Shown: positions 1-9,020, counted from the first letter of the stretch. The stretch: 64,000 nt of DNA from Chloroflexi bacterium HGW-Chloroflexi-8 (GCA_002841995.1 PHBS01000001.1:13277-77276), one strand, 5' to 3'. Notes: generated by a model from the letters alone, not told the origin. Made by a program: numbers and translations.

Positions 1-1
1 A

Positions 2-280
2 CCTCAGCTAATTAATATATTAATAGGGGAGATGAGTATTGTTGGTCCCCGTCCTATTGTAGAGGATGAAATACCACATTATAAGGATGTTTTTGAACTT
101 TATAAACAAGTCGAGCCAGGTCTAACCGGCATGTGGCAGGTATCCGGTAGGTCAGACACCTCCTATGAAAATAGAGTTCAATTGGATGAATATTACATTC
201 GCCATTGGTCTATTTGGATGGATATTTATATTATTGTTAAGACTTTTTGGATTCTAATTAAAGGCAAAGGGGCATATTAA
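2..280 (+). CDS. Bacterial sugar transferase (monotopic phosphoglycosyl transferase), C-terminal fragment; 5' end lies outside the window
   Basis: The frame is open from nt 2. The sequence ..QLINILIGEMSIVGPRP..LTGMWQVSGRSD..DIYIIVKTFWILIKGKGAY is the conserved C-terminal core of WbaP/PglC-type transferases. It has the same ending as the domain at 8400-9020. Confidence 0.85.
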   Translation, partial: PQLINILIGEMSIVGPRPIVEDEIPHYKDVFELYKQVEPGLTGMWQVSGRSDTSYENRVQLDEYYIRHWSIWMDIYIIVKTFWILIKGKGAY

Positions 281-332
281 TCAAGAAAAATTAAACATCA
301 ACTTCTTCAAGAATCAAGCCCAATGGATTTTG

Positions 333-1244
333 ATGAGTGATGATATTCGCAAGGTTTTTGAACAGCTAAATGAAGTTCATATACCTTTTATCGTTTTAAA
401 GGGATGGGCTTTTGGGGGGGATCTATACCAAAAACTAGGCGATCGAGGTATTAGTGATTTGGATATTCTGGTTAAATCGGACCAATTAAAAGATGTTATC
501 TCAGCACTAAAAAAAGTTGGTTTTTACATGGTTGAACCTAAATCCGTATTTTCTGGAAGTCAAAAAAACACTAATGACACAATACCATTGGCATTAAATT
601 TTAGAAGTAAATCTGGTGTTTTTATTGACCTCCATACCCATGTTTTTACTTCGCCATGGCTACTGCCAGTCTATCCAATTAAAATGGATGATTTGTGGAA
701 AGAAAAATCTCTTTTTACAGATTGGGATGGGAATTCAATATACCGTCTTTCCCTTGAGCATAATTTCATGCATTTAGTTAGCCATATTATTAGACACGGT
801 CTGACCTCAAATGTTCTAAAATCTTATCAGGATTTGGATATATTAATAAACAAATATTCAAACGAAATCAATTGGACTAAAGTAATCGAGAATTCCATAA
901 ATTGGCGAATGATGAAAGGTACTTATTTTGTCTGCGTCATACTAAATCAGGTTTACAAGACCATAATTCCAGAAGAATTAATTATTTTATTAAAACCTAA
1001 TAAATTGCGAATATGGTTATTTGGATTAACTACATCGGCTCGCAATCTTAAGGATGGATTAAAAAATAAAAAATACAAAATGTTTATTGGAAAATTGGTC
1101 TTAATAGATCGACCGATTGATATAATAATCTCACTTCTTCGACCAATTTTTCCTAGTAAAGAGTTCACCAAATCATTGTATGGAAAACCAACCTCATTAT
1201 TATCACATTGGTTTCAACTAATAAAGTACGGAATACAATATTAA
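333..1244 (+). CDS. Uncharacterised nucleotidyltransferase family protein (NTP_transf_5), AT-rich copy
   Basis: Family blocks are present: IPFIVLKGWAFGGDLY, GISDLDILV, IDLHTHVF, LSLEHNFMHLVSHIIRHG. It is a clear paralogue of 3536-4525. A TTG at 330 is an alternative start. Confidence 0.8.
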   Translation: MSDDIRKVFEQLNEVHIPFIVLKGWAFGGDLYQKLGDRGISDLDILVKSDQLKDVISALKKVGFYMVEPKSVFSGSQKNTNDTIPLALNFRSKSGVFIDLHTHVFTSPWLLPVYPIKMDDLWKEKSLFTDWDGNSIYRLSLEHNFMHLVSHIIRHGLTSNVLKSYQDLDILINKYSNEINWTKVIENSINWRMMKGTYFVCVILNQVYKTIIPEELIILLKPNKLRIWLFGLTTSARNLKDGLKNKKYKMFIGKLVLIDRPIDIIISLLRPIFPSKEFTKSLYGKPTSLLSHWFQLIKYGIQY

Positions 1245-1807
1245 CTAATCATTAAATACTTTCGTTTATCGATTTTGATCAATTTTCAAATTTAGGTAAA
1301 ACTTCCTGACGGCACCCAATTAACAATCCAAAACTCCTCCCAACTGCTATCTTCTACTCCATAAAAACATCCGGATATAGCTCCAAAAACATCCGAATCC
1401 TTTCCAAAACCATCTCAAAACATACTTCAAAGAATTAAAAATCACACCTAAAATCTTCCTGTAAAGATAGGTTGTAAATTACTAAAATATTGTTTCCATA
1501 AATCGGATGTTGGACTATACTTTTTCCACCGCTTTTTCTAATCACTTTTTGTGAAAACCAAAACTTAATTCAAGGCTTGATCTCGCACAAATAATTATCC
1601 TTTTTATGTTTAAAACACCATTTTTTAAAGTTTTTCACATCGAAAAAAGCAACATCATTTTTTTTGTATTCGAATTTGTGAAACGAATACTGTGTAGCAA
1701 ATATGCCCTTGGATTCGCCGAGTTAAGAAATTATTTGTAATCCGGTTCTAATTTATGGGTTCGTTCTGTTATGTTTAATCTTTTATCCTTAAAATTTGGA
1801 GTAATCA

Positions 1808-2959
1808 ATGGACTGGAAAGTGCCGCTCACCGAACTAAGTTATGGACCTGAAGAAGAACAGGCTGTCCTCGACGTCATCAAATCCAAATGGCTCACCATG
1901 GGTGCAGTCACCGAGAAATTTGAACATGACTTCCGCATATTTATGCACAGCAAGCATGCCATCGCTGTTGCCAATGCGACCGAAGCCCTGCACATGGCCT
2001 GCCTGGTGCTGGGAGTTGGTCCCGGGGATGAAGTCATTGTCCCCTCGCTGAGCTTTGTCGCCACTGCCAACGCAGTCCTCTATACCGGAGCCAACGTCGT
2101 GTTTGCAGATATCACCTCACCGCAAAAACCGACCATCTCATTACGCGACATTGTCAAAAAAGCTACCCCCAAAACCAAAGCGATTATCGTCATGCATTAT
2201 GCCGGTTACCCGTGCGACATGGCCGAGATCTATCACTTTGCCCGAACTCACAACATCTTTGTGATCGAGGATGCCGCTCATGCCCCGGGTGCCATTACCA
2301 AAGGGGAGTACATTGGTTCCTACGGCGATATTGGCTGCTTTTCCTTCTTTTCCAACAAAAACATCGCCACCGGTGAAGGCGGTATGCTCACCACGCAGGA
2401 CGATGAGATTGCCAGACGTTTGCGCTTTCTGCGCTCGCATGGTATGACCTCCCTGACGTACGACCGTCACCAGGGGCACGCCTACAGTTATGATGTGGTT
2501 GCGCTGGGTTACAACTACCGCATCGACGAGATCCATGCCGCGCTGGGGATTGAGCAGCTCAAGAAGCTGTTTAATAATAACCACAAGCGCGGGCTGGCAA
2601 ATTATCTTTACCGCATTGGTCTGGCGACCACGGTGGAGGTGCCGTTCACCAAGTTCAAAGAGAGATCCGCCTTCCATCTCTTCCCGATCCTGCTGCCTGT
2701 GGGTGCAAACCGTCAGGCTTTCCAGGAGTACATGAAGGAGCAGGGCATCCAGACCAGCATCCATTACCCGCCCATCCACCTGTTTAGCTATTATAAGAAT
2801 CGCTACCCGATTGATCATGAGCTGCCCATCACCGAGGATTATGCCGCCCGCGAGGTGACCCTGCCGCTCTTTCCCACGATTACCCATGAGCAGATCGATT
2901 ATGTGTGCGAGCATGTAAAGAAGGGGTTAAGTACAGCTCATGAGGTCATAAGCGCTTAA
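1808..2959 (+). CDS. DegT/DnrJ/EryC1/StrS-family PLP-dependent sugar aminotransferase
   Basis: 383 aa. Motifs AIAVANATEALHMA, IVMHYAGYPCDM, EDAAHAPGA and FSFFSNKNIATGEGGML (PLP-Lys region) are present. A GGAG lies 7 nt upstream. Local G+C is high. Confidence 0.9.
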   Translation: MDWKVPLTELSYGPEEEQAVLDVIKSKWLTMGAVTEKFEHDFRIFMHSKHAIAVANATEALHMACLVLGVGPGDEVIVPSLSFVATANAVLYTGANVVFADITSPQKPTISLRDIVKKATPKTKAIIVMHYAGYPCDMAEIYHFARTHNIFVIEDAAHAPGAITKGEYIGSYGDIGCFSFFSNKNIATGEGGMLTTQDDEIARRLRFLRSHGMTSLTYDRHQGHAYSYDVVALGYNYRIDEIHAALGIEQLKKLFNNNHKRGLANYLYRIGLATTVEVPFTKFKERSAFHLFPILLPVGANRQAFQEYMKEQGIQTSIHYPPIHLFSYYKNRYPIDHELPITEDYAAREVTLPLFPTITHEQIDYVCEHVKKGLSTAHEVISA

Positions 2960-2965
2960 GTTGAT

Positions 2966-2989
2966 AAGCTGTTGAGCTCTTAAGCTGTT
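2966..2989. repeat. Left arm of a 24-nt inverted repeat flanking the four-helix-bundle gene (AAGCTGTTGAGCTCTTAAGCTGTT)
   Basis: Direct reading of the sequence. It contains the octamer AAGCTGTT twice. It is complementary at 22 of 24 positions to 3500-3523. Confidence 0.85.
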
Positions 2990-3042
2990 GAAGTGAGACA
3001 CTCAGAAACCTGAAATATTTACAATTAAAAAAAAGGATATTC

Positions 3043-3438
3043 ATGACTGCATCAAACACATTATCCTACAAAGATCTGGTTGTATGGCAAAAAAGCCTGG
3101 AATTTGCAAATAAGGTTATAGAAATTACTGAGACCCTAAAAACACAAAATGTAAATTTCCGTTTACTCGATCAATTAACAGCGGCTTGTACTTCCATTCC
3201 AATGAACATCGCCGAAGGAAAAGGTCGTTTTTCCAACAAGGAATTCAAGCACTACATGGTTATTGCTCGTGGATCTTTGTTTGAAACAATGACACTCATT
3301 GAGATTTTCAAACTTCGTAATTGGATATCACAGGAAAACTATAATACACTTCAAAATGAAGCAATCCAAATCACGAAGATGATCAATTCTCTTAACAGAA
3401 GCATCACCCCAATCGAAAGAGCCACCAAAACTGAATAA
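3043..3438 (+). CDS. Four-helix-bundle protein, 23S rRNA intervening-sequence protein family (Avd-like)
   Basis: 131 aa. LVVWQKSLEFANKVIEIT ... NIAEGKGRFSNKEFKHYMVIARGSLFETMTLIEI is typical of the family. An AAAGGA RBS is present. G+C is about 30%, within flanks of 52-57%. Confidence 0.85.
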   Translation: MTASNTLSYKDLVVWQKSLEFANKVIEITETLKTQNVNFRLLDQLTAACTSIPMNIAEGKGRFSNKEFKHYMVIARGSLFETMTLIEIFKLRNWISQENYNTLQNEAIQITKMINSLNRSITPIERATKTE

Positions 3439-3499
3439 ATGTGTAAAGTTCCCAAGTTTCCTGTGGGCTATCTAAATCCCATTTCTTTCTTAACAGCCT

Positions 3500-3523
3500 A
3501 ACAGCTTATGAGCTAAACAGCTT
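3500..3523. repeat. Right arm of the 24-nt inverted repeat (AACAGCTTATGAGCTAAACAGCTT), with a third degenerate octamer at 3492-3499
   Basis: Direct reading. The reverse complement AAGCTGTTTAGCTCATAAGCTGTT differs from the left arm at 2 positions. Confidence 0.85.
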
Positions 3524-3535
3524 GCCAATCCAACA

Positions 3536-4525
3536 ATGATTATGACACATCAACTTATCGCCCAATACATCCACTGGCAGCCGCACCTGAATGCCCTTTT
3601 TAGCGCTTTGGAAGCTGCCGAAATCCCATTCCTGGTGCTCAAAGGCTGGGCATTCATCCCGGACTTGTATCCCGACCCTTCTATCGGCCGCCCATTGGGG
3701 GATGTTGACCTCCTGGTTCAGCCGCAAAAATTTTCGAAGGCAGTTCGGCTGATATTAAACCTTGGATACCAACCGGGGTCCAAACACTCAAATTACGGTT
3801 ATGATCGGAAAAGCAGCTACACTCCCAAAGAACTCGCTTTTTATAATGCTGCTGGTGTGTCGATTGATCTGCATAGCCACATTTTTCCGACATTTTGGTC
3901 GCAGGCAGCCTACCCGATGGATATGGACGTGGTGTGGGAGTCCCGTCAACTTTTCACGGATTGGGGTGGCAATTCGCTTGAGCGTCTTTCCGCGGAGCTC
4001 AACTTCCTGCACCTGATCACCCATATCGTCCGGCATGGGCTGCTCGACATGAACCAGAACTCCTATCGGGATCTTGTTCGCCTTTTGGAAAAGTATGGAT
4101 CCGTGCTGGATTGGGTTCAAATCCGTAAGCTGGTGGTGGATTGGCGCCTGCAAAGTGCCTTCTTTTTTGTCCGCCGAACTTGTGAAAAAGGCTTTCAGAT
4201 CCAATTTCCGGCTGCGCTCAAAGATGATTGGCAGCCCGGGTCCCTGCGACTGTGGTTTGTGGATCGCATTCTAACGCCACTGTGGAACCTTCATCCGGGC
4301 GGGGAACATTGGCTGCTCAAATCTTTGCTGACCCTTGCGCTGGTCGATCAACCCGGGCAGGCATTCGGGCTGGTTTGGGATGTCCTCTTCCCAACCGATG
4401 AAGCGCGTTATCATTTGCACGGTTATTCGCTCTCATTGTTTCGGCATTACCAGGTTTTACTGAGCCGAAGTTTCGGCTGGAAGCGGAAAGAGCTTTGGCC
4501 ATTAACTCCCCCAATGGGTGATTAG
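3536..4525 (+). CDS. Uncharacterised nucleotidyltransferase family protein (NTP_transf_5), GC-rich copy
   Basis: 329 aa. Blocks IPFLVLKGWAFIPDLY, LGDVDLLV, IDLHSHIF and LSAELNFLHLITHIVRHG align block-for-block with 333-1244. Confidence 0.85.
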   Translation: MIMTHQLIAQYIHWQPHLNALFSALEAAEIPFLVLKGWAFIPDLYPDPSIGRPLGDVDLLVQPQKFSKAVRLILNLGYQPGSKHSNYGYDRKSSYTPKELAFYNAAGVSIDLHSHIFPTFWSQAAYPMDMDVVWESRQLFTDWGGNSLERLSAELNFLHLITHIVRHGLLDMNQNSYRDLVRLLEKYGSVLDWVQIRKLVVDWRLQSAFFFVRRTCEKGFQIQFPAALKDDWQPGSLRLWFVDRILTPLWNLHPGGEHWLLKSLLTLALVDQPGQAFGLVWDVLFPTDEARYHLHGYSLSLFRHYQVLLSRSFGWKRKELWPLTPPMGD

Positions 4526-4570
4526 TTTGCATAAAACTCCGTCTCTTCCCTAAAGTTTTCATAATCAATT

Positions 4571-4605
4571 CGCTACCCGCTACCCGCTACCAGCTACTCG
4601 CTATT
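4571..4605. repeat. Heptanucleotide tandem repeat (CGCTACC x3 plus two degenerate units)
   Basis: The sequence reads cgctacc cgctacc cgctacc agctact cgctatt. It lies in the intergenic gap after the NTP_transf_5 gene. Confidence 0.8.
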
Positions 4606-4665
4606 CTCCTGTTCTTTTCCACAATATAGTATGATTAATTCAAATTATTATTTCCCCCAATTCTC

Positions 4666-4959
4666 ATGTCCCTGATTGATTTTCCTTCCCTGATCTCCAA
4701 CTTTATCTGGATCCTGGCGCTGGCCTGGCTGCTGGTGGTTGTTTCCATGGCGCGCTGGGAGGCACATCGCCTTGGCATCCGGTTGCGGGAACAGCTGGAC
4801 AAATCCACACAGCAGGTTCAGCTCAATATTGGGGGACTGCTTTTCTGTTTGGGCATGGGTCTGGTCACAGACAAAACATGGCAAATTGTGTTGTGGTTCA
4901 TCCTTGCATTTGTATTCCTTATTCAGATTGTTTTGGCAGCACGCAGCTCGAATTCCTGA
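4666..4959 (+). CDS. Hypothetical small membrane protein (about 3 predicted TM segments)
   Basis: 97-aa ORF with hydrophobic stretches (FIWILALAWLLVVVSM, GGLLFCLGMGLV, IVLWFILAFVFLIQIVL). No clear RBS. The region is GC-rich and also yields overlapping spurious ORFs, so coding status is uncertain. Confidence 0.3.
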   Translation: MSLIDFPSLISNFIWILALAWLLVVVSMARWEAHRLGIRLREQLDKSTQQVQLNIGGLLFCLGMGLVTDKTWQIVLWFILAFVFLIQIVLAARSSNS

Positions 4960-5080
4960 AATCCGCCCGTTTCTACCTCTGAACTCATCAATTTTTATAT
5001 TTTTCGTCCCGGAATTTTTTTTGTGGCATAATATATGCACGGGTTTTTCGCGGTTTTTGCGCGGCCAGTAGGAGAGCGTT

Positions 5081-6241
5081 TTGCCATCTGTTCAGAGATG
5101 CCCATTATTGGGTTTAAAGGATGATGATCAATCACGCCTGGCTTTTGCCAGCGAGAGCCATGCTTGTTATCGATCCGGAAAAGGCAAACCGATCTCAATC
5201 GCGCACCAGCGTGAATTCTGCCTGGAAAAAGAACATATTACCTGCCCGATCTTCATAAATGCCGGTTTGAACCCGCCAAAACCAATCGCAGTCATTCCTC
5301 CAAAATTAAGAACAGAAGAACAGGCTGTTGTCGCAGCTACCACGCAGGTTGATGAAAAAGATGAAATTTCGGAAGAGTTTTCAGAAGAACCAGGTCTTCA
5401 ACCCCGTTTTGCGCATATTTGGGAGATTGCAGGTGTGGCAATATTTGCGATCATATTGTTAGTCGGGTGGTGGCTATTTAATAACCGGGACTTGTTTTTC
5501 CCCAACCATACTCCGGTGCAGGCTTTCATTGCAAAAACTGCCCAAATCAGCCCGACGGTCACCAGTACAGATATCTTTGTCCCGAACGCAGCTCATGTCC
5601 TTGCGCTCACAACCACACCCATCGTAACGGATCCCAGTGGTGTTGTTGTTACTCCCAGTCTCACGATTTTGCCTTCCGTAACCGCGACTGTGACCGTAAC
5701 AAGAACCAGAACTCGCACGGTTTCTCCATCACCCAGTACATCACCTTCACGAACGCCAACGCCAGATTTGCCAGGCTCGACCGCCAGCACAAGTTGTAGT
5801 TTGCCGGGTGGTTGGACTACTTACACCATTGTCTCCGGGGATACCTTGTTTTATTTTGCAAATGTCTTCAACACAACCGTGGAAGCGATCATACAAGCGA
5901 ATTGTTTGACCAGCACCACGATTTATCCGGGACAGTCCATCTTTCTTCCAGGTGTACCACGTTCATCGACGGCTACATTCACCCCCACACCAACGCGCGA
6001 AGAAGCCCATAGTACCAATACGCGGACACCCACACGAACCTTTACGTCCACTTTTACTTTTACACCGCTTCCTACCCTCACTTACACGCCTTCGAATACA
6101 CCCTCACCAACGAACATTCCGCCAACAGCCACCCATACGCCAACGAATATTCCGCCAACAGCTACACCGACGCCAACGGAGACATTCACACCATTACCAC
6201 CAACCGACACACCTTTTCCATCCACCAGTACAACCCCGTGA
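5081..6241 (+). CDS. Single-pass membrane protein with an N-terminal Cys/His-rich segment, Thr/Pro-rich linkers and a LysM domain
   Basis: The start is a TTG preceded by AGGAGA. A TM helix (IWEIAGVAIFAIILLVGWWLF) is present. The LysM block is YTIVSGDTLFYFANVFNTTVEAIIQANCL..IYPGQSIFLPG. Long TP/ST-rich tracts flank it. Confidence 0.8.
   Translation: MPSVQRCPLLGLKDDDQSRLAFASESHACYRSGKGKPISIAHQREFCLEKEHITCPIFINAGLNPPKPIAVIPPKLRTEEQAVVAATTQVDEKDEISEEFSEEPGLQPRFAHIWEIAGVAIFAIILLVGWWLFNNRDLFFPNHTPVQAFIAKTAQISPTVTSTDIFVPNAAHVLALTTTPIVTDPSGVVVTPSLTILPSVTATVTVTRTRTRTVSPSPSTSPSRTPTPDLPGSTASTSCSLPGGWTTYTIVSGDTLFYFANVFNTTVEAIIQANCLTSTTIYPGQSIFLPGVPRSSTATFTPTPTREEAHSTNTRTPTRTFTSTFTFTPLPTLTYTPSNTPSPTNIPPTATHTPTNIPPTATPTPTETFTPLPPTDTPFPSTSTTP
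6107..6172 (+). repeat. In-frame 33-bp tandem repeat x2 (plus a partial third) encoding PTNIPPTATHT/PTNIPPTATPT
   Basis: Direct reading: ccaacgaacattccgccaacagccacccatacg / ccaacgaatattccgccaacagctacaccgacg. Confidence 0.85.
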
Positions 6242-6312
6242 GCATTTTTCAATCAACCCGAGTTGGATGGATGTGAATTATTGTCAAAATTAATCATTCA
6301 AGTAAAGAAAAA

Positions 6313-6335
6313 GTCTCTGAGTTCTCAGAGTTTTT
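6313..6335 (+). terminator. Weak candidate intrinsic terminator after the LysM gene
   Basis: A 6-bp stem ctctga/tcagag with a 4-nt loop is followed by TTTTT. Confidence 0.3.
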
Positions 6336-6344
6336 GTGTTTAAA

Positions 6345-7328
6345 ATGAAAGATTTTAACCTCCGTAAAAAAATCTTCCAAATCATAAAGATCCTGATTGG
6401 ACTTCTCTTGCTGTTTCTCTCCTTCCGCAGCATAGACTGGGGATTATTTGCCAAGGCTTTATTTTCCGCATCTCCAATTTTTATATCGCTCGCTGTACTG
6501 AGTGTTACACTCAGTCTGGGACTTAAACTCTGGCGCTGGCATCTCTTGCTGGAAAATTTCAAGGTCAAAATTCCGTTTTCGCGCCTGGTTACATCTTATT
6601 TCCTCGGGCAGGCTGCTAATATTTTACTGGTTTTACGTGCCGGAGAATTGGTTCGGATTGGATGGGCGCATCAGGCTAAAGAACAGGATCTGGTTGAAAT
6701 CACAGGTTCAATTGCGATCGAGAAATACCTGGATTTATTGATGTTTGTCCTCTCCATGTTGGTCGTTTCGACTGCTTTACCTGAGATTGTTCAGGATTAC
6801 ATTGGTACCTATCAGACGATGGCTATCGTTGCATCGCTGGGATTCGTGTTTGCAGTGCTTCTGGGTCCGTGGGTCTGGAAAAAGTTATTTGCCGGTCGGG
6901 TATGGAAAGGCTGGATGGGAAAAATTGCAGACAGACTGGATTTGTTCATTAATGCCAGCAATTGGCTTCGACATCCTGAAAAAGTTGGTTTACTGATCAT
7001 TTGGAGCACCATTATCTGGATCGTTATGGGAATGACGAACTGGTTATTATTCAATTCGCTAAAGCTCTCACTTGGGTGGCAGGCAGCAGGGCTGGTGCTC
7101 ATATTTGTCTATATTGGTGTACTTCCAGCATTGATGCCGGGTAACATTGGACCTTTCACTTACTTTGCACAGTTGGCTTTGCTTCCTTTCGCTGTGGAGT
7201 TATCTTCAGCGGTCGCATTTGCAGTCCTGTTGTACGTGATTGTTAATCTACCTCCGCTGCTCATAGCCGGTGTGATGATGCTGGCACCGAAGTACAAGAA
7301 TAACGTTTCGAGTAAATTGTTGATTTGA
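6345..7328 (+). CDS. Flippase-like membrane protein (LPG_synthase_TM / UPF0104 family)
   Basis: Polytopic membrane protein. The N-terminus KILIGLLLLFLSFRSIDWGLFAKAL and the block RAGELVRIGW are typical of the family. A GTG at 6336 is an alternative start. Confidence 0.7.
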   Translation: MKDFNLRKKIFQIIKILIGLLLLFLSFRSIDWGLFAKALFSASPIFISLAVLSVTLSLGLKLWRWHLLLENFKVKIPFSRLVTSYFLGQAANILLVLRAGELVRIGWAHQAKEQDLVEITGSIAIEKYLDLLMFVLSMLVVSTALPEIVQDYIGTYQTMAIVASLGFVFAVLLGPWVWKKLFAGRVWKGWMGKIADRLDLFINASNWLRHPEKVGLLIIWSTIIWIVMGMTNWLLFNSLKLSLGWQAAGLVLIFVYIGVLPALMPGNIGPFTYFAQLALLPFAVELSSAVAFAVLLYVIVNLPPLLIAGVMMLAPKYKNNVSSKLLI

Positions 7329-7403
7329 TCGTGTGATAGTATTTTTTGAATGAACGGTTCAATCTTTATTCCAATTATTCATGTTCGTAAGTAATTCAAA
7401 GCG

Positions 7404-9020
7404 ATGAATTCACAATATTCTTTCTCAGTCATTATTCCAGCCAAAAATTCAGCCAAATCATTGCCTGCCTGTCTGCAATCCTTGCTTCATCAGGATGGTT
7501 TTCAGTTTGGTGAGAATTATGAAGTGGTTTTGGTGGACGATGGTTCGAGCGATGAGACAGCGTTCATTGGTGAACAGATTGGTGTACGTGTAATCCGTCA
7601 GGCTAATTCCGGACCGGCTGCTGCCCGAAATTGTGGTGCAAAAGCTGCCCAATCGGAGTTACTCCTTTTTACCGATTCAGATTGCATTCCTCAATCAAAT
7701 TGGTGCCTGGAAATGAATAAACCTTTCAAAGATCCCGAAGTCATGGGTGTTAAAGGAGCTTACCTTTGCCAGGAACATAATCAAGTGGCAAGATTTGTAC
7801 AACAGGAATTTGAATATAAATATATGGGAATGTCCAAACTCCCGCAAATTGATTTTATTGATACTTATTCTGCTGCATATCGAAAATACATATTCCTGGA
7901 GAATAACGGCTTTGATGAGAACTTTCCCATCCCATCGGTGGAAGATCAGGAATTATCTTTTCGGTTATCCAGAAAAGGGTATAAACTTGTCTTCCAACCA
8001 ACGGCCAGGGTTTATCACTCGCATGACGCTGATTTTAGCGAATATGCAAGACGTAAGTGGGGAATTGGTTATTGGAAGGCGTTTATGCTGCGGTGGCTAC
8101 CGGAAAAGGCTTTATCTGATACTTACACGCCAGCATCCCAACGCTGGCAGATCATTATTCTGGCAGTTTTCTTATTGAGTTTGATTTTTGGTTTATTTTG
8201 GCATTGGCTTTGGATTTTGGCCAGTTTTTCACTGGTTTTATTTTATCTTTCGGCTGTACCTTTTATCAAATTACTCCTCAAAAATGACAACAAAATAATC
8301 GCTGCAAGTCTGATTCTTCTCATCGTTCGGGCGGGTGCTTTAGGTTTTGGTCTTTTGTATGGTTTTCTATTTCCTCCAAAGACAGTGACTCCATATGAGC
8401 AAGGGCCAGGAATACTTGAAAGTGCGACAAAACGATTGATGGATATTCTTGGATCTATAATTGGGATCTTTTTATGTGCTCCATTCGTGGGAATTGCAGC
8501 GGTATTTATTGCAATCGACAGCAAGGGTAGTGTTTTTTATACGCAAATGCGGGCTGGGAAAAATGGGAAACCATTTCGGCTTTATAAACTTCGAACGATG
8601 GTGGTTGAGGCAGATCAAATGGTTGAAGAACAGCTCAAGCAAAATAGTTTGATTAATGAAAACTCCACCCATAAAAATGCCAATGATCCACGGGTTACCA
8701 GAGTCGGCCGTTTTCTACGACGATGGAGTTTGGATGAAATTCCTCAATTTTGGAACATTCTAAAAGGTGAAATGAGCCTGGTTGGACCACGTCCGGAAGA
8801 GACACGGTTGGTGGAAAAGTATACAGATCATCAGCGCCAACGTCTTGTCGTAAAACCCGGGTTAACAGGTCCAATGCAGATTTCTGGAAGGGCAGATCTT
8901 GGATTCGATGACCGGCTGGCATGTGAGTTGGACTATATTAAGGATTACTCCTTATGGAAGGATGTAAAAATTCTATTGAAATCGATAAAAGTTGTACTTT
9001 CTGGAAAAGGCGCATATTAA
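7404..9020 (+). CDS. Fusion protein: N-terminal family-2 glycosyltransferase, a TM region, and a C-terminal bacterial sugar transferase (phosphoglycosyl transferase)
   Basis: GT2 blocks FSVIIPAKNS, VVLVDDGSSD and LLFTDSDCIP are present, then about 4 TM helices. The PGT core follows: RLMDILGSIIGIFLCAPF...FYTQMRAGKNGKPFRLYKLRTM...SLDEIPQFWNILKGEMSLVGPRP...GKGAY. Confidence 0.9.
   Translation: MNSQYSFSVIIPAKNSAKSLPACLQSLLHQDGFQFGENYEVVLVDDGSSDETAFIGEQIGVRVIRQANSGPAAARNCGAKAAQSELLLFTDSDCIPQSNWCLEMNKPFKDPEVMGVKGAYLCQEHNQVARFVQQEFEYKYMGMSKLPQIDFIDTYSAAYRKYIFLENNGFDENFPIPSVEDQELSFRLSRKGYKLVFQPTARVYHSHDADFSEYARRKWGIGYWKAFMLRWLPEKALSDTYTPASQRWQIIILAVFLLSLIFGLFWHWLWILASFSLVLFYLSAVPFIKLLLKNDNKIIAASLILLIVRAGALGFGLLYGFLFPPKTVTPYEQGPGILESATKRLMDILGSIIGIFLCAPFVGIAAVFIAIDSKGSVFYTQMRAGKNGKPFRLYKLRTMVVEADQMVEEQLKQNSLINENSTHKNANDPRVTRVGRFLRRWSLDEIPQFWNILKGEMSLVGPRPEETRLVEKYTDHQRQRLVVKPGLTGPMQISGRADLGFDDRLACELDYIKDYSLWKDVKILLKSIKVVLSGKGAY

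What the first reader, a model, noticed from the sequence alone, without database searches (positions are those of the whole stretch)
2966..3523. rRNA-IVS-like cassette: AT-rich four-helix-bundle gene bracketed by 24-nt inverted repeats between two GC-rich genes
**Seen in sequence:**
- The 131-aa four-helix-bundle ORF (3043-3438) has about 30% G+C, by hand count on the line at 3121.
- Neighbouring lines at 1861, 4261 and 5701 give about 52-57%.
- The gene is flanked by AAGCTGTTGAGCTCTTAAGCTGTT (2966-2989) and AACAGCTTATGAGCTAAACAGCTT (3500-3523).
- These arms are complementary at 22 of 24 positions.
- Each arm is built from two copies of the octamer AAGCTGTT. A third degenerate copy lies at 3492-3499.
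- The left arm starts 7 nt after the DegT stop. The right arm ends 12 nt before the next start codon.

**Established knowledge:**
- This protein family was first found as ORFs inside 23S rRNA intervening sequences.
- Those sequences are stem-loops closed by flanking inverted repeats and excised by RNase III.
- The DGR accessory protein Avd is a structural relative.

**Inference, one of two things is true:**
- The same stem-plus-ORF architecture has inserted as a discrete mobile cassette into a protein-coding operon.
- Or the long-range stem is an RNA-processing or stability element that separates the two flanking cistrons.
Basis: partly seen in the sequence, partly recalled or inferred. Interest (0 to 1): 0.62.

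Follow-up and report, generated by a model that had tools for sequence, protein, structure and literature searches.

The report
Helix-bundle gene inside octamer-repeat hairpin
A small gene of the long-unexplained "23S rRNA intervening-sequence protein" family sits between two sugar-pathway genes of an Anaerolineaceae bacterium, looped out by two mirror-image runs of an 8-base repeat; the same packaging surrounds relatives of this gene in many phyla, which makes the family's function testable.

Summary
ORF 3043-3438 is a PF05635/TIGR02436 four-helix-bundle (4HB) protein. It is bracketed by inverted arrays of the octamer AAGCTGTT (2950-2989 and 3489-3523). Their pairing is the strongest of 4,228 equally spaced pairs in the window.

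Two corrections:
- The gene's codon composition (GC3 0.36) equals the genome median. The flanking DegT and NTP_transf_5 genes (GC3 0.65 and 0.58) are the outliers.
- The arms belong to a genome-wide family of short tandem arrays. About eight other sites have them without a gene.

The link to the gene family is nevertheless specific:
- In the genus, 22 of 35 4HB genes are bracketed, against 5 of 105 neighbouring ORFs.
- Units differ between loci but always match between the two arms.
- Unit period (7 or 8) and unit sequence follow the protein tree, across phyla.
- The two empty junctions examined lack arrays.
- At junctions with 90-96% identical flanks, the 4HB proteins are only 54-72% identical.

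My best reading is an intervening-sequence-like cassette, gene plus arms as one unit, whose arms pair in the operon transcript. Print describes this only inside rRNA. This scan has already logged the same design in other genomes.

The parts
1808..2959 (+). Upstream flank: DegT/DnrJ/EryC1-type sugar aminotransferase (383 aa), GC3 0.65
   Evidence: PF01041 at E 2e-114. The best NCBIfam hit, PseC, is below cut-off. Composition.
2950..2989 (+). Left arm: five tandem octamers (AAGCGCTT AAGTTGAT AAGCTGTT GAGCTCTT AAGCTGTT). It overlaps the DegT stop codon (2957-2959) and carries stop codons in all three forward frames.
2990..3042 (+). Left spacer, 28% G+C, with a Shine-Dalgarno-like AAGGA (3033-3037) 5 nt before the ATG. 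No promoter-like site on the + strand.
3043..3438 (+). Four-helix-bundle protein gene (131 aa) of the PF05635 / TIGR02436 family. It is the only copy in this assembly.
   Evidence: AlphaFold model pLDDT 87 with four helices. Top fold matches are 2GSC and 2RLD, then Avd 4DWL/8UBE.
3439..3488 (+). Right spacer, 38% G+C, with no terminator-like site.
3489..3523 (-). Right arm: 4.4 octamers. Read on the minus strand they are AAGCTGTT TAGCTCAT AAGCTGTT AGGCTGTT AAG. Stop codons occur in all three frames when read inward on the minus strand. The arm ends 12 nt before the next ATG.
3536..4525 (+). Downstream flank: NTP_transf_5 nucleotidyltransferase (329 aa), GC3 0.58.
   Evidence: PF14907 at E 8e-34. 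Composition.
4571..4603 (-). Solo heptamer array (CGCTACC x4.7, GGTAGCG on the other strand) 46 nt after the NTP_transf_5 stop. It belongs to the genome-wide TAGCKGG family, has no partner arm and encloses no gene.

Best explanation
This is an intervening-sequence-like cassette lodged between two cistrons of a glycan-biosynthesis operon. It consists of a translated, selectively maintained four-helix-bundle gene and two inverted arrays of a tandem octamer, and these are inherited and exchanged as one unit.

**Shown:**
- The anatomy of the cassette.
- The statistical link between this gene family and inverted 7-8-nt arrays.
- The match of the two arms within each locus despite different units between loci.
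- The coupling of arm type to protein clade.
- Purifying selection on the gene.

**Inferred:**
- DegT, the cassette and NTP_transf_5 are co-transcribed.
- In that transcript the arms pair into a stem of about 35 bp, which loops the 4HB cistron out.
- The stem brings the DegT stop (inside the left arm) next to the NTP_transf_5 start (12 nt past the right arm).
- As in the 23S rRNA IVS, the stem is a double-strand-specific RNase (RNase III) substrate. Cleavage would release a 4HB mRNA and split the operon transcript at a defined point.
- The pentameric, Avd-like protein may bind its own repeat arms.
For: **Anatomy and strength of the stem:**

**Family identity and fold:**
-.
- Solved relatives 2GSC and 2RLD each have five chains.
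- The next fold hit is Avd, including the Avd chains of the DGR ribonucleoprotein 8UBE/8UB7.

**Specific association with the gene family:**
- Genus: 22 of 35 4HB genes against 5 of 105 other ORFs reach score 12 or more.
- Order: 13 of 27 reach 14 or more, against a 99th percentile of 14 for mismatched flanks.
- Cross-phylum: 51 of 70.

**Arms.**
- They average 28.6 nt, close to the 28-bp Coxiella IVS stem that RNase III cleaves (PMC4990558).
- That paper also reports tandem heptamers in the IVS 5' region, with the RNase III 5' site at the start of the first repeat.
- At the orthologous DegT|NTP_transf_5 junction of G001, the unit is AAGYTCTT in both arms. Here it is AAGCTGTT in both arms. That is a change on both sides.
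- Periods are 7 (45 loci) or 8 (9 loci), never 6 or 9.

**Coupling to the protein tree.**
- Period needs 3 changes on the protein tree, against 8.6 for shuffled labels. None of 300 shuffles reached 3.

**Selection and transcription.**
- dN/dS is 0.08-0.26 in the four close pairs that gave a value.
- There is no promoter-like or terminator-like site inside the cassette on the + strand, and an SD-like AAGGA precedes the ATG.
Against: - There is no transcript evidence.
- G.U against A.C mismatches in 55 arm pairs are 42 against 30 (p 0.19). Selection on the sense RNA rather than on DNA is therefore not demonstrated.
- The same arrays occur without any gene at gene 3' ends elsewhere in this genome. 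The arrays must then have a life of their own.
- In G010 each spacer holds a complete local hairpin, so long-range pairing is not the only possible fold.
- The consensus promoter scan is sigma-70 based and may miss Chloroflexota promoters.
Confidence: 0.5

Rival explanations
1. DNA-level mobile or exchangeable cassette. The inverted arrays are the ends at which the unit is inserted, replaced or lost. Possible routes are recombination between arrays, or an unidentified host enzyme acting on hairpin DNA. Any RNA stem is a by-product. This is not exclusive of the best explanation.
For: - Copy number is patchy, 0-7 per genome within one genus.
- At junctions with 90-96% identical flanks (UGDH, CysNC), the 4HB proteins are 54-72% identical and carry different arms.
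- Junctions without the gene (G011 CysNC|UGDH, G002 p316|UGDH) have no arrays.
- Protein clades with the same arm unit span different phyla and one archaeal MAG.
- A decayed 4HB remnant with heptamers lies upstream of DegT in G013.
- Members of the octamer clade sit at four different junctions.
Against: - I found no transposase, integrase or target-site duplication.
- No two near-identical copies occur in one genome. The two adjacent G010 copies have dS 0.67.
- The empty sites come from fairly diverged species (72-78% flank identity), so insertion cannot be told from loss.
- The one syntenic genome for this very junction (G013) has a 100-N scaffold gap there.
Confidence: 0.3
2. Cognate protein-repeat system. 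The 4HB pentamer is the specific binding partner of the 7-8-nt arrays throughout the genome. The gene with its arms is the 'master' copy and the gene-less arrays are its targets. This is formally like a RAYT gene and its REP/REPIN sequences.
For: - Only one 4HB gene, of the octamer clade, is in this genome. About eight gene-less arrays of the same octamer family are present.
- Octamer arrays are abundant only in G000, G001, G010 and G014, and three of these four carry octamer-clade 4HB genes.
- The number of TAGCTSR heptamer hits rises with the number of 4HB genes (Spearman 0.65, p 0.003).
- Period and unit follow protein clade.
- The structural relative Avd is an RNA-binding pentamer.
Against: - This genome holds about 24 TAGCTSR heptamer hits but no heptamer-clade 4HB gene.
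- Genomes without any 4HB gene still have 7-12 hits, apart from G007 with none, against a control of 0.
- G014 has many octamer arrays but no octamer-clade gene in its assembly.
- All of these are incomplete MAGs, and arrays break assemblies, so absences are soft.
- No binding data exist.
Confidence: 0.2
3. Coincidence. The gene simply lies between two generic intergenic arrays that decorate many gene ends in this genome. The complementarity follows from both being copies of one repeat family.
For: Arrays sit right after stop codons at many gene ends without any 4HB gene. In G010, DegT and an NTP_transferase gene are also 'bracketed', because every spacer holds a hairpin.
Against: - The enrichment is 22 of 35 against 5 of 105 in the same loci.
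- Strictly inverted orientation, with a low direct-repeat score, is seen in most loci with high-scoring inverted arms.
- The pattern recurs with other units in other phyla.
- Arm type is coupled to protein clade.
Confidence: 0.06
4. The 4HB protein and the adjacent NTP_transf_5 nucleotidyltransferase form a two-gene module like HEPN-MNT, and the repeats are incidental.
For: Octamer-clade 4HB genes lie next to NTP_transf_5 genes in G000, G001 (twice) and G010.
Against: - A profile of these nucleotidyltransferases finds a neighbour in only the two G001 loci and, weakly, two Nitrospirota loci. That is 4 of 109 other 4HB loci.
- Most other 4HB genes in the genus flank CysNC, UGDH and other genes.
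- There are no PADLOC hits.
Confidence: 0.03

Closest known systems
ORF-bearing intervening sequences of 23S rRNA (Coxiella burnetii helix-45 IVS with S23p; Leptospira)
   Same: - The protein family is the same (PF05635).
- The gene sits in the loop of a stem made by terminal inverted repeats of about 28 bp.
- The Coxiella element has tandem heptamers in its 5' region.
- It is excised by RNase III and has been proposed to be horizontally acquired and mobile (PMC4990558).
   Different: - The host here is an mRNA operon (DegT | NTP_transf_5), not an rRNA helix.
- The arms are entirely tandem octamers.
- The gene is under purifying selection with a good SD. The Coxiella ORF is reported as decaying and untranslated.
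- Excision is untested here.
Avd, accessory protein of diversity-generating retroelements
   Same: It has the same four-helix-bundle fold and is the next fold match after the family's own structures (4DWL TM 0.61/0.73; 8UBE_D TM 0.69/0.81). Avd is a pentamer that binds structured RNA and a reverse transcriptase. 2GSC and 2RLD also hold five chains.
   Different: Sequence identity is 8-12%. I saw no reverse transcriptase or template/variable repeats in the ORFs and Pfam scans of window positions 1-9000, and a DGR was not specifically searched for.
Short tandem intergenic repeats: cyanobacterial STRR and GGGNATC heptamers of Xanthomonas/Nostoc (PMC4692102); paired tandem octa-/heptanucleotide sites of Geobacter metallireducens (PMC2700814)
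   Same: - Units are 7-8 nt in arrays of about 4-5 copies.
- They lie in non-coding DNA close to stop and start codons of co-oriented genes.
- In Geobacter they occur in pairs on opposite strands at variable distance.
   Different: Those papers read the repeats as G-quadruplexes or regulator sites. Neither links them to 4HB genes, and 'four helix bundle' does not occur in the Geobacter paper. Here the arrays enclose a PF05635 gene and their type follows its phylogeny.
REP/REPIN sequences and their RAYT gene (from my own knowledge, not tested against a paper here)
   Same: A single-copy gene is flanked by inverted copies of a repeat that is also dispersed, gene-less, through intergenic regions of the same genome.
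   Different: A RAYT is an HUH tyrosine transposase. The 4HB protein has no recognisable catalytic domain. The repeats here are tandem arrays rather than single palindromes.
Integron gene cassettes with attC (from my own knowledge)
   Same: Small genes are separated by imperfect palindromes. The octamer junction GTTAAGC even fits the GTTRRRY core.
   Different: - The order of the core-like motifs is the reverse of attC.
- Heptamer arms in sister cassettes do not fit the core.
- No integron integrase was sought or seen.
- I regard the match as chance.

Membership tests
PF05635 / TIGR02436 four-helix-bundle (23S rRNA IVS protein) family | Sequence match above the curated cut-offs | tested here: met
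   113.1 bits against a cut-off of 33.8 (Pfam). 111.4 bits against a cut-off of 24 (TIGR02436).
PF05635 / TIGR02436 four-helix-bundle (23S rRNA IVS protein) family | Four-helix up-down bundle like 2GSC/2RLD | tested here: met
   Model pLDDT 87 with helices 13-30, 39-60, 65-91 and 97-120. TM 0.74-0.81 (query) and 0.84-0.92 (target) to 2GSC/2RLD.
23S rRNA intervening sequence (IVS) | Inserted in a 23S rRNA helix (helix 9, 25 or 45) | tested here: not met
   It lies between two protein-coding genes. There is no rRNA or other Rfam family at 2800-4700.
23S rRNA intervening sequence (IVS) | Terminal inverted repeats form a long stem that encloses the element | tested here: met
   29 nt at 86% complementarity, -36 kcal/mol, paired in the MFE and centroid folds.
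23S rRNA intervening sequence (IVS) | Excision from the precursor RNA by RNase III | not testable with these tools
DGR accessory protein Avd | Encoded next to a DGR reverse transcriptase with template and variable repeats | not tested
   The neighbours scanned are DegT, NTP_transf_5, LysM, LPG_synthase_TM and GT2/Bac_transf. No reverse transcriptase was seen among them. No dedicated search for an RT or for template/variable repeats was run.
RAYT/REPIN system | The flanked gene encodes an HUH (IS200/IS605-type) transposase | tested here: not met
   The only Pfam hit of the enclosed gene is PF05635.
Short tandemly repeated intergenic repeats (STRR-like) | Arrays of 7-8-nt units, dispersed in non-coding DNA of the genome | tested here: met
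   19 octamer-pattern hits against 1 control hit in the own genome. 24 heptamer hits against 0 control hits. Positions right after stop codons.
Intrinsic terminator / REP-type local hairpin | Each repeat block folds on itself locally | tested here: not met
   In the window the left block is purely forward and the right block purely reverse, so neither is self-complementary. This differs from C218 and G010, where local hairpins exist.

The most novel reading that the evidence does not exclude
PF05635 four-helix-bundle pentamers and short-period (7-8 nt) tandem arrays form one genetic system.
- Each protein clade reads its own unit and period.
- The gene flanked by inverted arrays is the autonomous form, and the many gene-less arrays at gene ends are its dependants or relics.
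- Together they punctuate operon transcripts. The arms also place stop codons in all three frames for anything reading inward.
- The rRNA intervening sequences would be the special case that happened to be found first.
Probability: 0.22. Interest if true: 0.85.

Novelty: new variant of a known kind. Interest (0 to 1): 0.6.

Why it matters
- PF05635/TIGR02436 proteins are common across bacteria and have had no function since the rRNA intervening sequences were described in the early 1990s.
- Short heptamer and octamer tandem repeats (STRR, GGGNATC, the Geobacter 'regulator sites') are equally unexplained.
- This locus and its relatives tie the two together with a concrete, cheap experiment: does the protein bind its own arms, and does RNase III cut the stem?
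- If the stem is processed, these cassettes are mRNA counterparts of rRNA intervening sequences and a new way in which operon transcripts are cut or insulated.
- For annotation, the arrays also break short-read assemblies. They explain scaffold gaps and under-counted copies in MAGs.

Tried and rejected
1. **Empty site for this very junction.**
   - The only close syntenic genome (G013: DegT 81%, NTP_transf_5 55% identical) has a 100-N scaffold gap exactly there. This is uninformative.
   - G001 has the same DegT-4HB-NTP_transf_5 order, so it is filled.
2. **Empty site with arms retained.** I looked for relatives in which the gene-less octamer hairpin of contig C150 is filled. There are none. 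G006 has a plain terminator there and G017 a weak heptamer array.
3. **The CysNC-UGDH locus of relatives as an empty site in this genome.** The locus is absent from the assembly.
4. **RNA against DNA structure by the G.U/A.C asymmetry.** 42 against 30, p 0.19. This is inconclusive.
6. **4HB/NTP_transf_5 as a module.** Rejected.
7. **Defence-system membership.** No PADLOC hits.
8. **Known RNA family.** Only sub-threshold snoRNA noise.
9. **Integron attC reading of GTTAAGC/GCTTAAC.** The motif order is reversed and sister heptamer arms do not fit. I dropped it without a dedicated search.
10. **duplexfold energy of 150-nt flanks as a bracket statistic.** It is confounded by G+C, so I replaced it with ungapped complementarity scores.
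11. **4HB remnants in the AT-rich gap 1245-1807 and in 4500-5200.** None found.

Full report
**1. What is there**

Window positions 1808-4525 hold three co-oriented genes:
- a DegT-type aminotransferase (1808-2959);
- a 131-aa PF05635/TIGR02436 four-helix-bundle (4HB) protein (3043-3438);
- an NTP_transf_5 nucleotidyltransferase (3536-4525).

The 4HB gene is bracketed by two arrays of an octamer.
- The left array is five units on the + strand: AAGCGCTT AAGTTGAT AAGCTGTT GAGCTCTT AAGCTGTT (2950-2989).
- The right array is 4.4 units on the - strand (3489-3523).
- The DegT stop codon (2957-2959) is formed by a unit junction of the left array.
- The right array ends 12 nt before the NTP_transf_5 ATG.
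- An SD-like AAGGA lies 5 nt before the 4HB ATG.
- No sigma-70-like promoter or intrinsic-terminator-like site lies inside the cassette on the + strand.
- No Rfam family matches.

**2. Is it more than chance?**

- AAGCTGTT occurs six times in the window against 1.9 expected.
- The arms are 86% complementary over 29 nt.
- They pair in both the MFE and the centroid fold of 2930-3545 (z -2.6).
- Their duplex energy is -35.9 kcal/mol (-38.1 at the nearest sampled offset). That offset is the lowest of 4,228 window pairs taken at the same spacing across the 64 kb (mean -12.0, sd 4.3).

**3.

- The assembly is 3.95 Mb in 256 contigs, 93% complete.
- It has 40.7% G+C with a single-peaked distribution.
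- Its long ORFs have median GC3 0.36.
- The 4HB gene has GC3 0.36, so it is typical of the host.
- DegT (0.65) and NTP_transf_5 (0.58) lie at about the 99th percentile or above.
- The same contrast holds around the sister cassettes. 4HB genes are 0.30-0.44 G+C, and most adjacent genes are 0.5-0.6.
- The low G+C is therefore a property of the gene family in this genus, not a mark of recent arrival here.

**4. The arms belong to a genome-wide repeat family**

- The pattern AAGCTGTT-N8-AAGCTGTT (2 mismatches or fewer) hits 19 times in the own genome, against 1 for the reversed control.
- An in-phase scan finds about eleven octamer arrays away from the cassette.
- On C218 a forward and a reverse array abut. 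They form a direct hairpin between convergent genes.
- On C150 two arms enclose 138 nt that contain only a terminator-like hairpin.
- Others are solo arrays that start at or within a few bases of a stop codon.
- Heptamer families (TAGCKGG and others), nonamers and hexamers also occur. One heptamer array is at window 4571-4603.
- Only one PF05635 gene is found in the assembly.

**5. The association with the gene family is nevertheless specific**

Record titles of related loci place the organism in the Anaerolineaceae, Chloroflexota.

In 17 further genomes of the genus, PF05635 genes number 0-7. They sit mostly in glycan and sulfation gene clusters, one every 2-3 kb in places.

| Sample | 4HB genes with inverted arms | Control |
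|---|---|---|
| Genus loci, score 12 or more | 22 of 35 | 5 of 105 other ORFs of 100 aa or more in the same loci |
| Order, score 14 or more | 13 of 27 | 99th percentile of mismatched flank pairs is 14 |
| 80 nearest homologues in public genomes, score 12 or more | 51 of 70 | Inflated, because many loci share an AGCT-cored unit |

- The 80 homologues come from Chloroflexota, Desulfobacterota, Bacteroidota, Nitrospirota, Omnitrophota, Planctomycetota and one archaeal MAG.
- Units differ from locus to locus but are always the same in the two arms of one locus. Examples are AAGCTGTT, AAGTTCTT, AACACCTT, GCTGATG, AGCTGAA, AAAGGCG, GCTCACG, TTAGGGG and ATAGGTC.
- Periods are 7 (45 loci) or 8 (9 loci), never 6 or 9.
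- Arms average 28.6 nt.

**6. Gene and arms go together**

- In the genus tree, all octamer-armed 4HB proteins form one clade with support 92/93. These are this window, G001:C8 twice, G010 three times and G001:C2. Several other clades each carry their own heptamer unit.
- On a 54-protein tree that includes other phyla, the 7-versus-8 trait needs 3 changes, against 8.6 for shuffled labels. None of 300 shuffles reached 3.
- At the orthologous DegT|NTP_transf_5 junction of G001, the unit is AAGYTCTT in both arms. Here it is AAGCTGTT in both arms. That is a change on both sides.
- At junctions whose flanks are 90-96% identical in protein (UGDH, CysNC), the 4HB proteins are 54-72% identical and have different arms. 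The exception is G010/G001, at 87% with the same arms.
- Two junctions that lack the gene have no arrays at all: G011 CysNC|UGDH (146 nt) and G002 p316|UGDH (254 nt).
- G013 keeps a 19-residue 4HB remnant followed by heptamers upstream of DegT.
- The genes are not decaying. dN/dS is 0.08-0.26 in the four close pairs that gave a value.

**7. The protein**

- The AlphaFold model (pLDDT 87) is a four-helix bundle.
- Its best matches are the family structures 2GSC and 2RLD, each deposited with five chains.
- The next match is the DGR protein Avd, including its chains in the DGR ribonucleoprotein.
- No PADLOC defence model matches.

**8. What I could not decide**

- *RNA or DNA.* Among 166 mismatches in 55 arm pairs, G.U outnumbers A.C by 42 to 30 (p 0.19). 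The lean towards a sense-RNA structure is not significant.
- *Empty site for this junction.* It is hidden in a 100-N scaffold gap in G013.
- *Gene-less hairpin of C150.* I found no relative in which it is filled.
- *Mechanism of movement.* I found no recombinase or target duplication.
- *Adjacency to NTP_transf_5.* It is local synteny, not a general pairing.

**9. Arrays and 4HB genes across the genus**

- Octamer arrays are frequent only in G000, G001, G010 and G014. The first three carry octamer-clade 4HB genes.
- TAGCTSR heptamer hits rise with the number of 4HB genes (Spearman 0.65, p 0.003).
- Genomes without any 4HB gene still have 7-12 hits, apart from G007 with none, against a control of 0.
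- This genome has 24 heptamer hits without a heptamer-clade gene.
- A strict 'each array family needs its own protein in the genome' model is therefore not supported. The caveat is that these are fragmented MAGs whose contigs often end in arrays.

**10. Literature**

- The Coxiella IVS paper describes a 28-bp terminal stem cut by RNase III. It also describes tandem GACAGAT heptamers before the S23p start codon, and the old idea that the IVS is mobile (PMC4990558).
- The Geobacter metallireducens genome paper lists pairs of tandem octa- and heptanucleotide sites on opposite strands at variable distance. It reads them as regulator sites and never mentions the 4HB family (PMC2700814).
- Rehm et al. 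describe GGGNATC heptamer arrays close to stop and start codons (PMC4692102).
- Full-text searches for the family names found no paper that links the gene family with such arrays outside rRNA.
- Earlier notes of this scan report the same design in other genomes, including octamer variants and Anaerolineae. I treated these as leads. The tests above were run independently here.

**11. Verdict**

- The finding is real. It is one more member, with octamer arms, of a class of IVS-like 4HB cassettes that sit in operons.
- The published record knows the design only inside 23S rRNA, so I rate it a new variant of a known kind.
- The most likely working model is pairing of the arms in the operon transcript with RNase III-type processing, possibly with the protein binding its own arms. 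This is inferred by analogy and from arm covariation, and I give it about 0.5.
- Exchange of the unit at the DNA level is compatible with the same data and likely in addition.

Noticed in passing
window 1808-6241: A G+C-rich island lies inside a 30-37% G+C contig. It holds DegT, NTP_transf_5 and a LysM protein at 49-53% G+C; DegT and NTP_transf_5 have GC3 0.58-0.65, about the 99th percentile or above for the genome. A second, AT-rich NTP_transf_5 paralogue (330-1244, GC3 0.27, 34% identical) lies just upstream. It looks like a mosaic glycan locus built partly from genes of G+C-richer relatives.
   Followed up: partly
window 4571-4603: A solo heptamer array (CGCTACC x4.7) lies 46 nt after the NTP_transf_5 stop. 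It belongs to the TAGCKGG family, which has about 24 hits in this genome, and has no partner arm nearby.
   Followed up: partly
window 2950-2992 and 3486-3528; 55 arm pairs from other loci: - Read inward from either side, the arms of this cassette carry stop codons in all three frames.
- Across 55 cassettes the left-arm strand does so in 33-42%, against 16% for its complement and 3-7% for shuffles.
- A stop-containing unit of period 7 or 8, unlike 6 or 9, cycles through all frames. This may bear on why only periods 7 and 8 are seen.
- The signal is weak and not controlled for tandem structure.
   Followed up: partly
L060 (G013:C113) about 6790-6870, minus strand: A decayed C-terminal fragment of a 4HB gene (19 residues, 58% identical to residues 103-121 of the window protein) is followed by CTACGAG heptamers, just upstream of the DegT orthologue. 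The PF05635 search finds no gene in that genome.
   Followed up: partly
L058 (G006:C7) 3654-4551: About 900 nt are packed with at least ten heptamer arrays of several families (TAGCTGG, GCTACGA, TGAAAGC, ATTCAGG) and hold no ORF. It looks like a graveyard or nursery of arms.
   Followed up: no
G000 contigs C66:207-268, C197:540 and 7976, C112:25750; G014 C10, C11, C22, C100: Arrays often lie within a few hundred bases of contig ends. The syntenic junction in G013 is a 100-N gap. These repeats seem to break short-read assemblies, so counts of 4HB genes in MAGs are probably too low.
   Followed up: no
L096 (JAOQII010000050.1, Candidatus Syntrophoarchaeum MAG): A 4HB gene with TAGCTGA/AGCTCAT heptamer arms lies in a contig binned as an archaeon. 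In the tree it groups with copies from Syntrophorhabdus and Desulfohalobiaceae. This is either cross-domain transfer of the whole cassette or a binning error.
   Followed up: no
L054 (G010:C34) 7570-8952: A PIN-domain gene and an AT-rich DUF3800 gene lie between the 4HB cassette after DegT and the NTP_transf_5 gene. G000 and G001 have nothing there. The same array-rich stretch has taken up other small accessory genes.
   Followed up: no
G000 contigs C44, C45, C62, C66, C112, C197 (nonamers); C80 (hexamers): Further short tandem families occur in this genome: CACGAAAAA-type nonamers at six or more sites, and long AACCTT hexamer arrays (up to 15 units) on C80. None was seen around a 4HB gene.
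   Followed up: no
L059 (G016:C5) 1360-2628 and 3478-4650: Two larger genes (a Peptidase_C39-like protein and a LysM protein) are each bracketed by non-tandem inverted repeats of 26-27 nt (scores 21 and 23). Bracketing by long-range stems may not be limited to 4HB genes in these loci.
   Followed up: no
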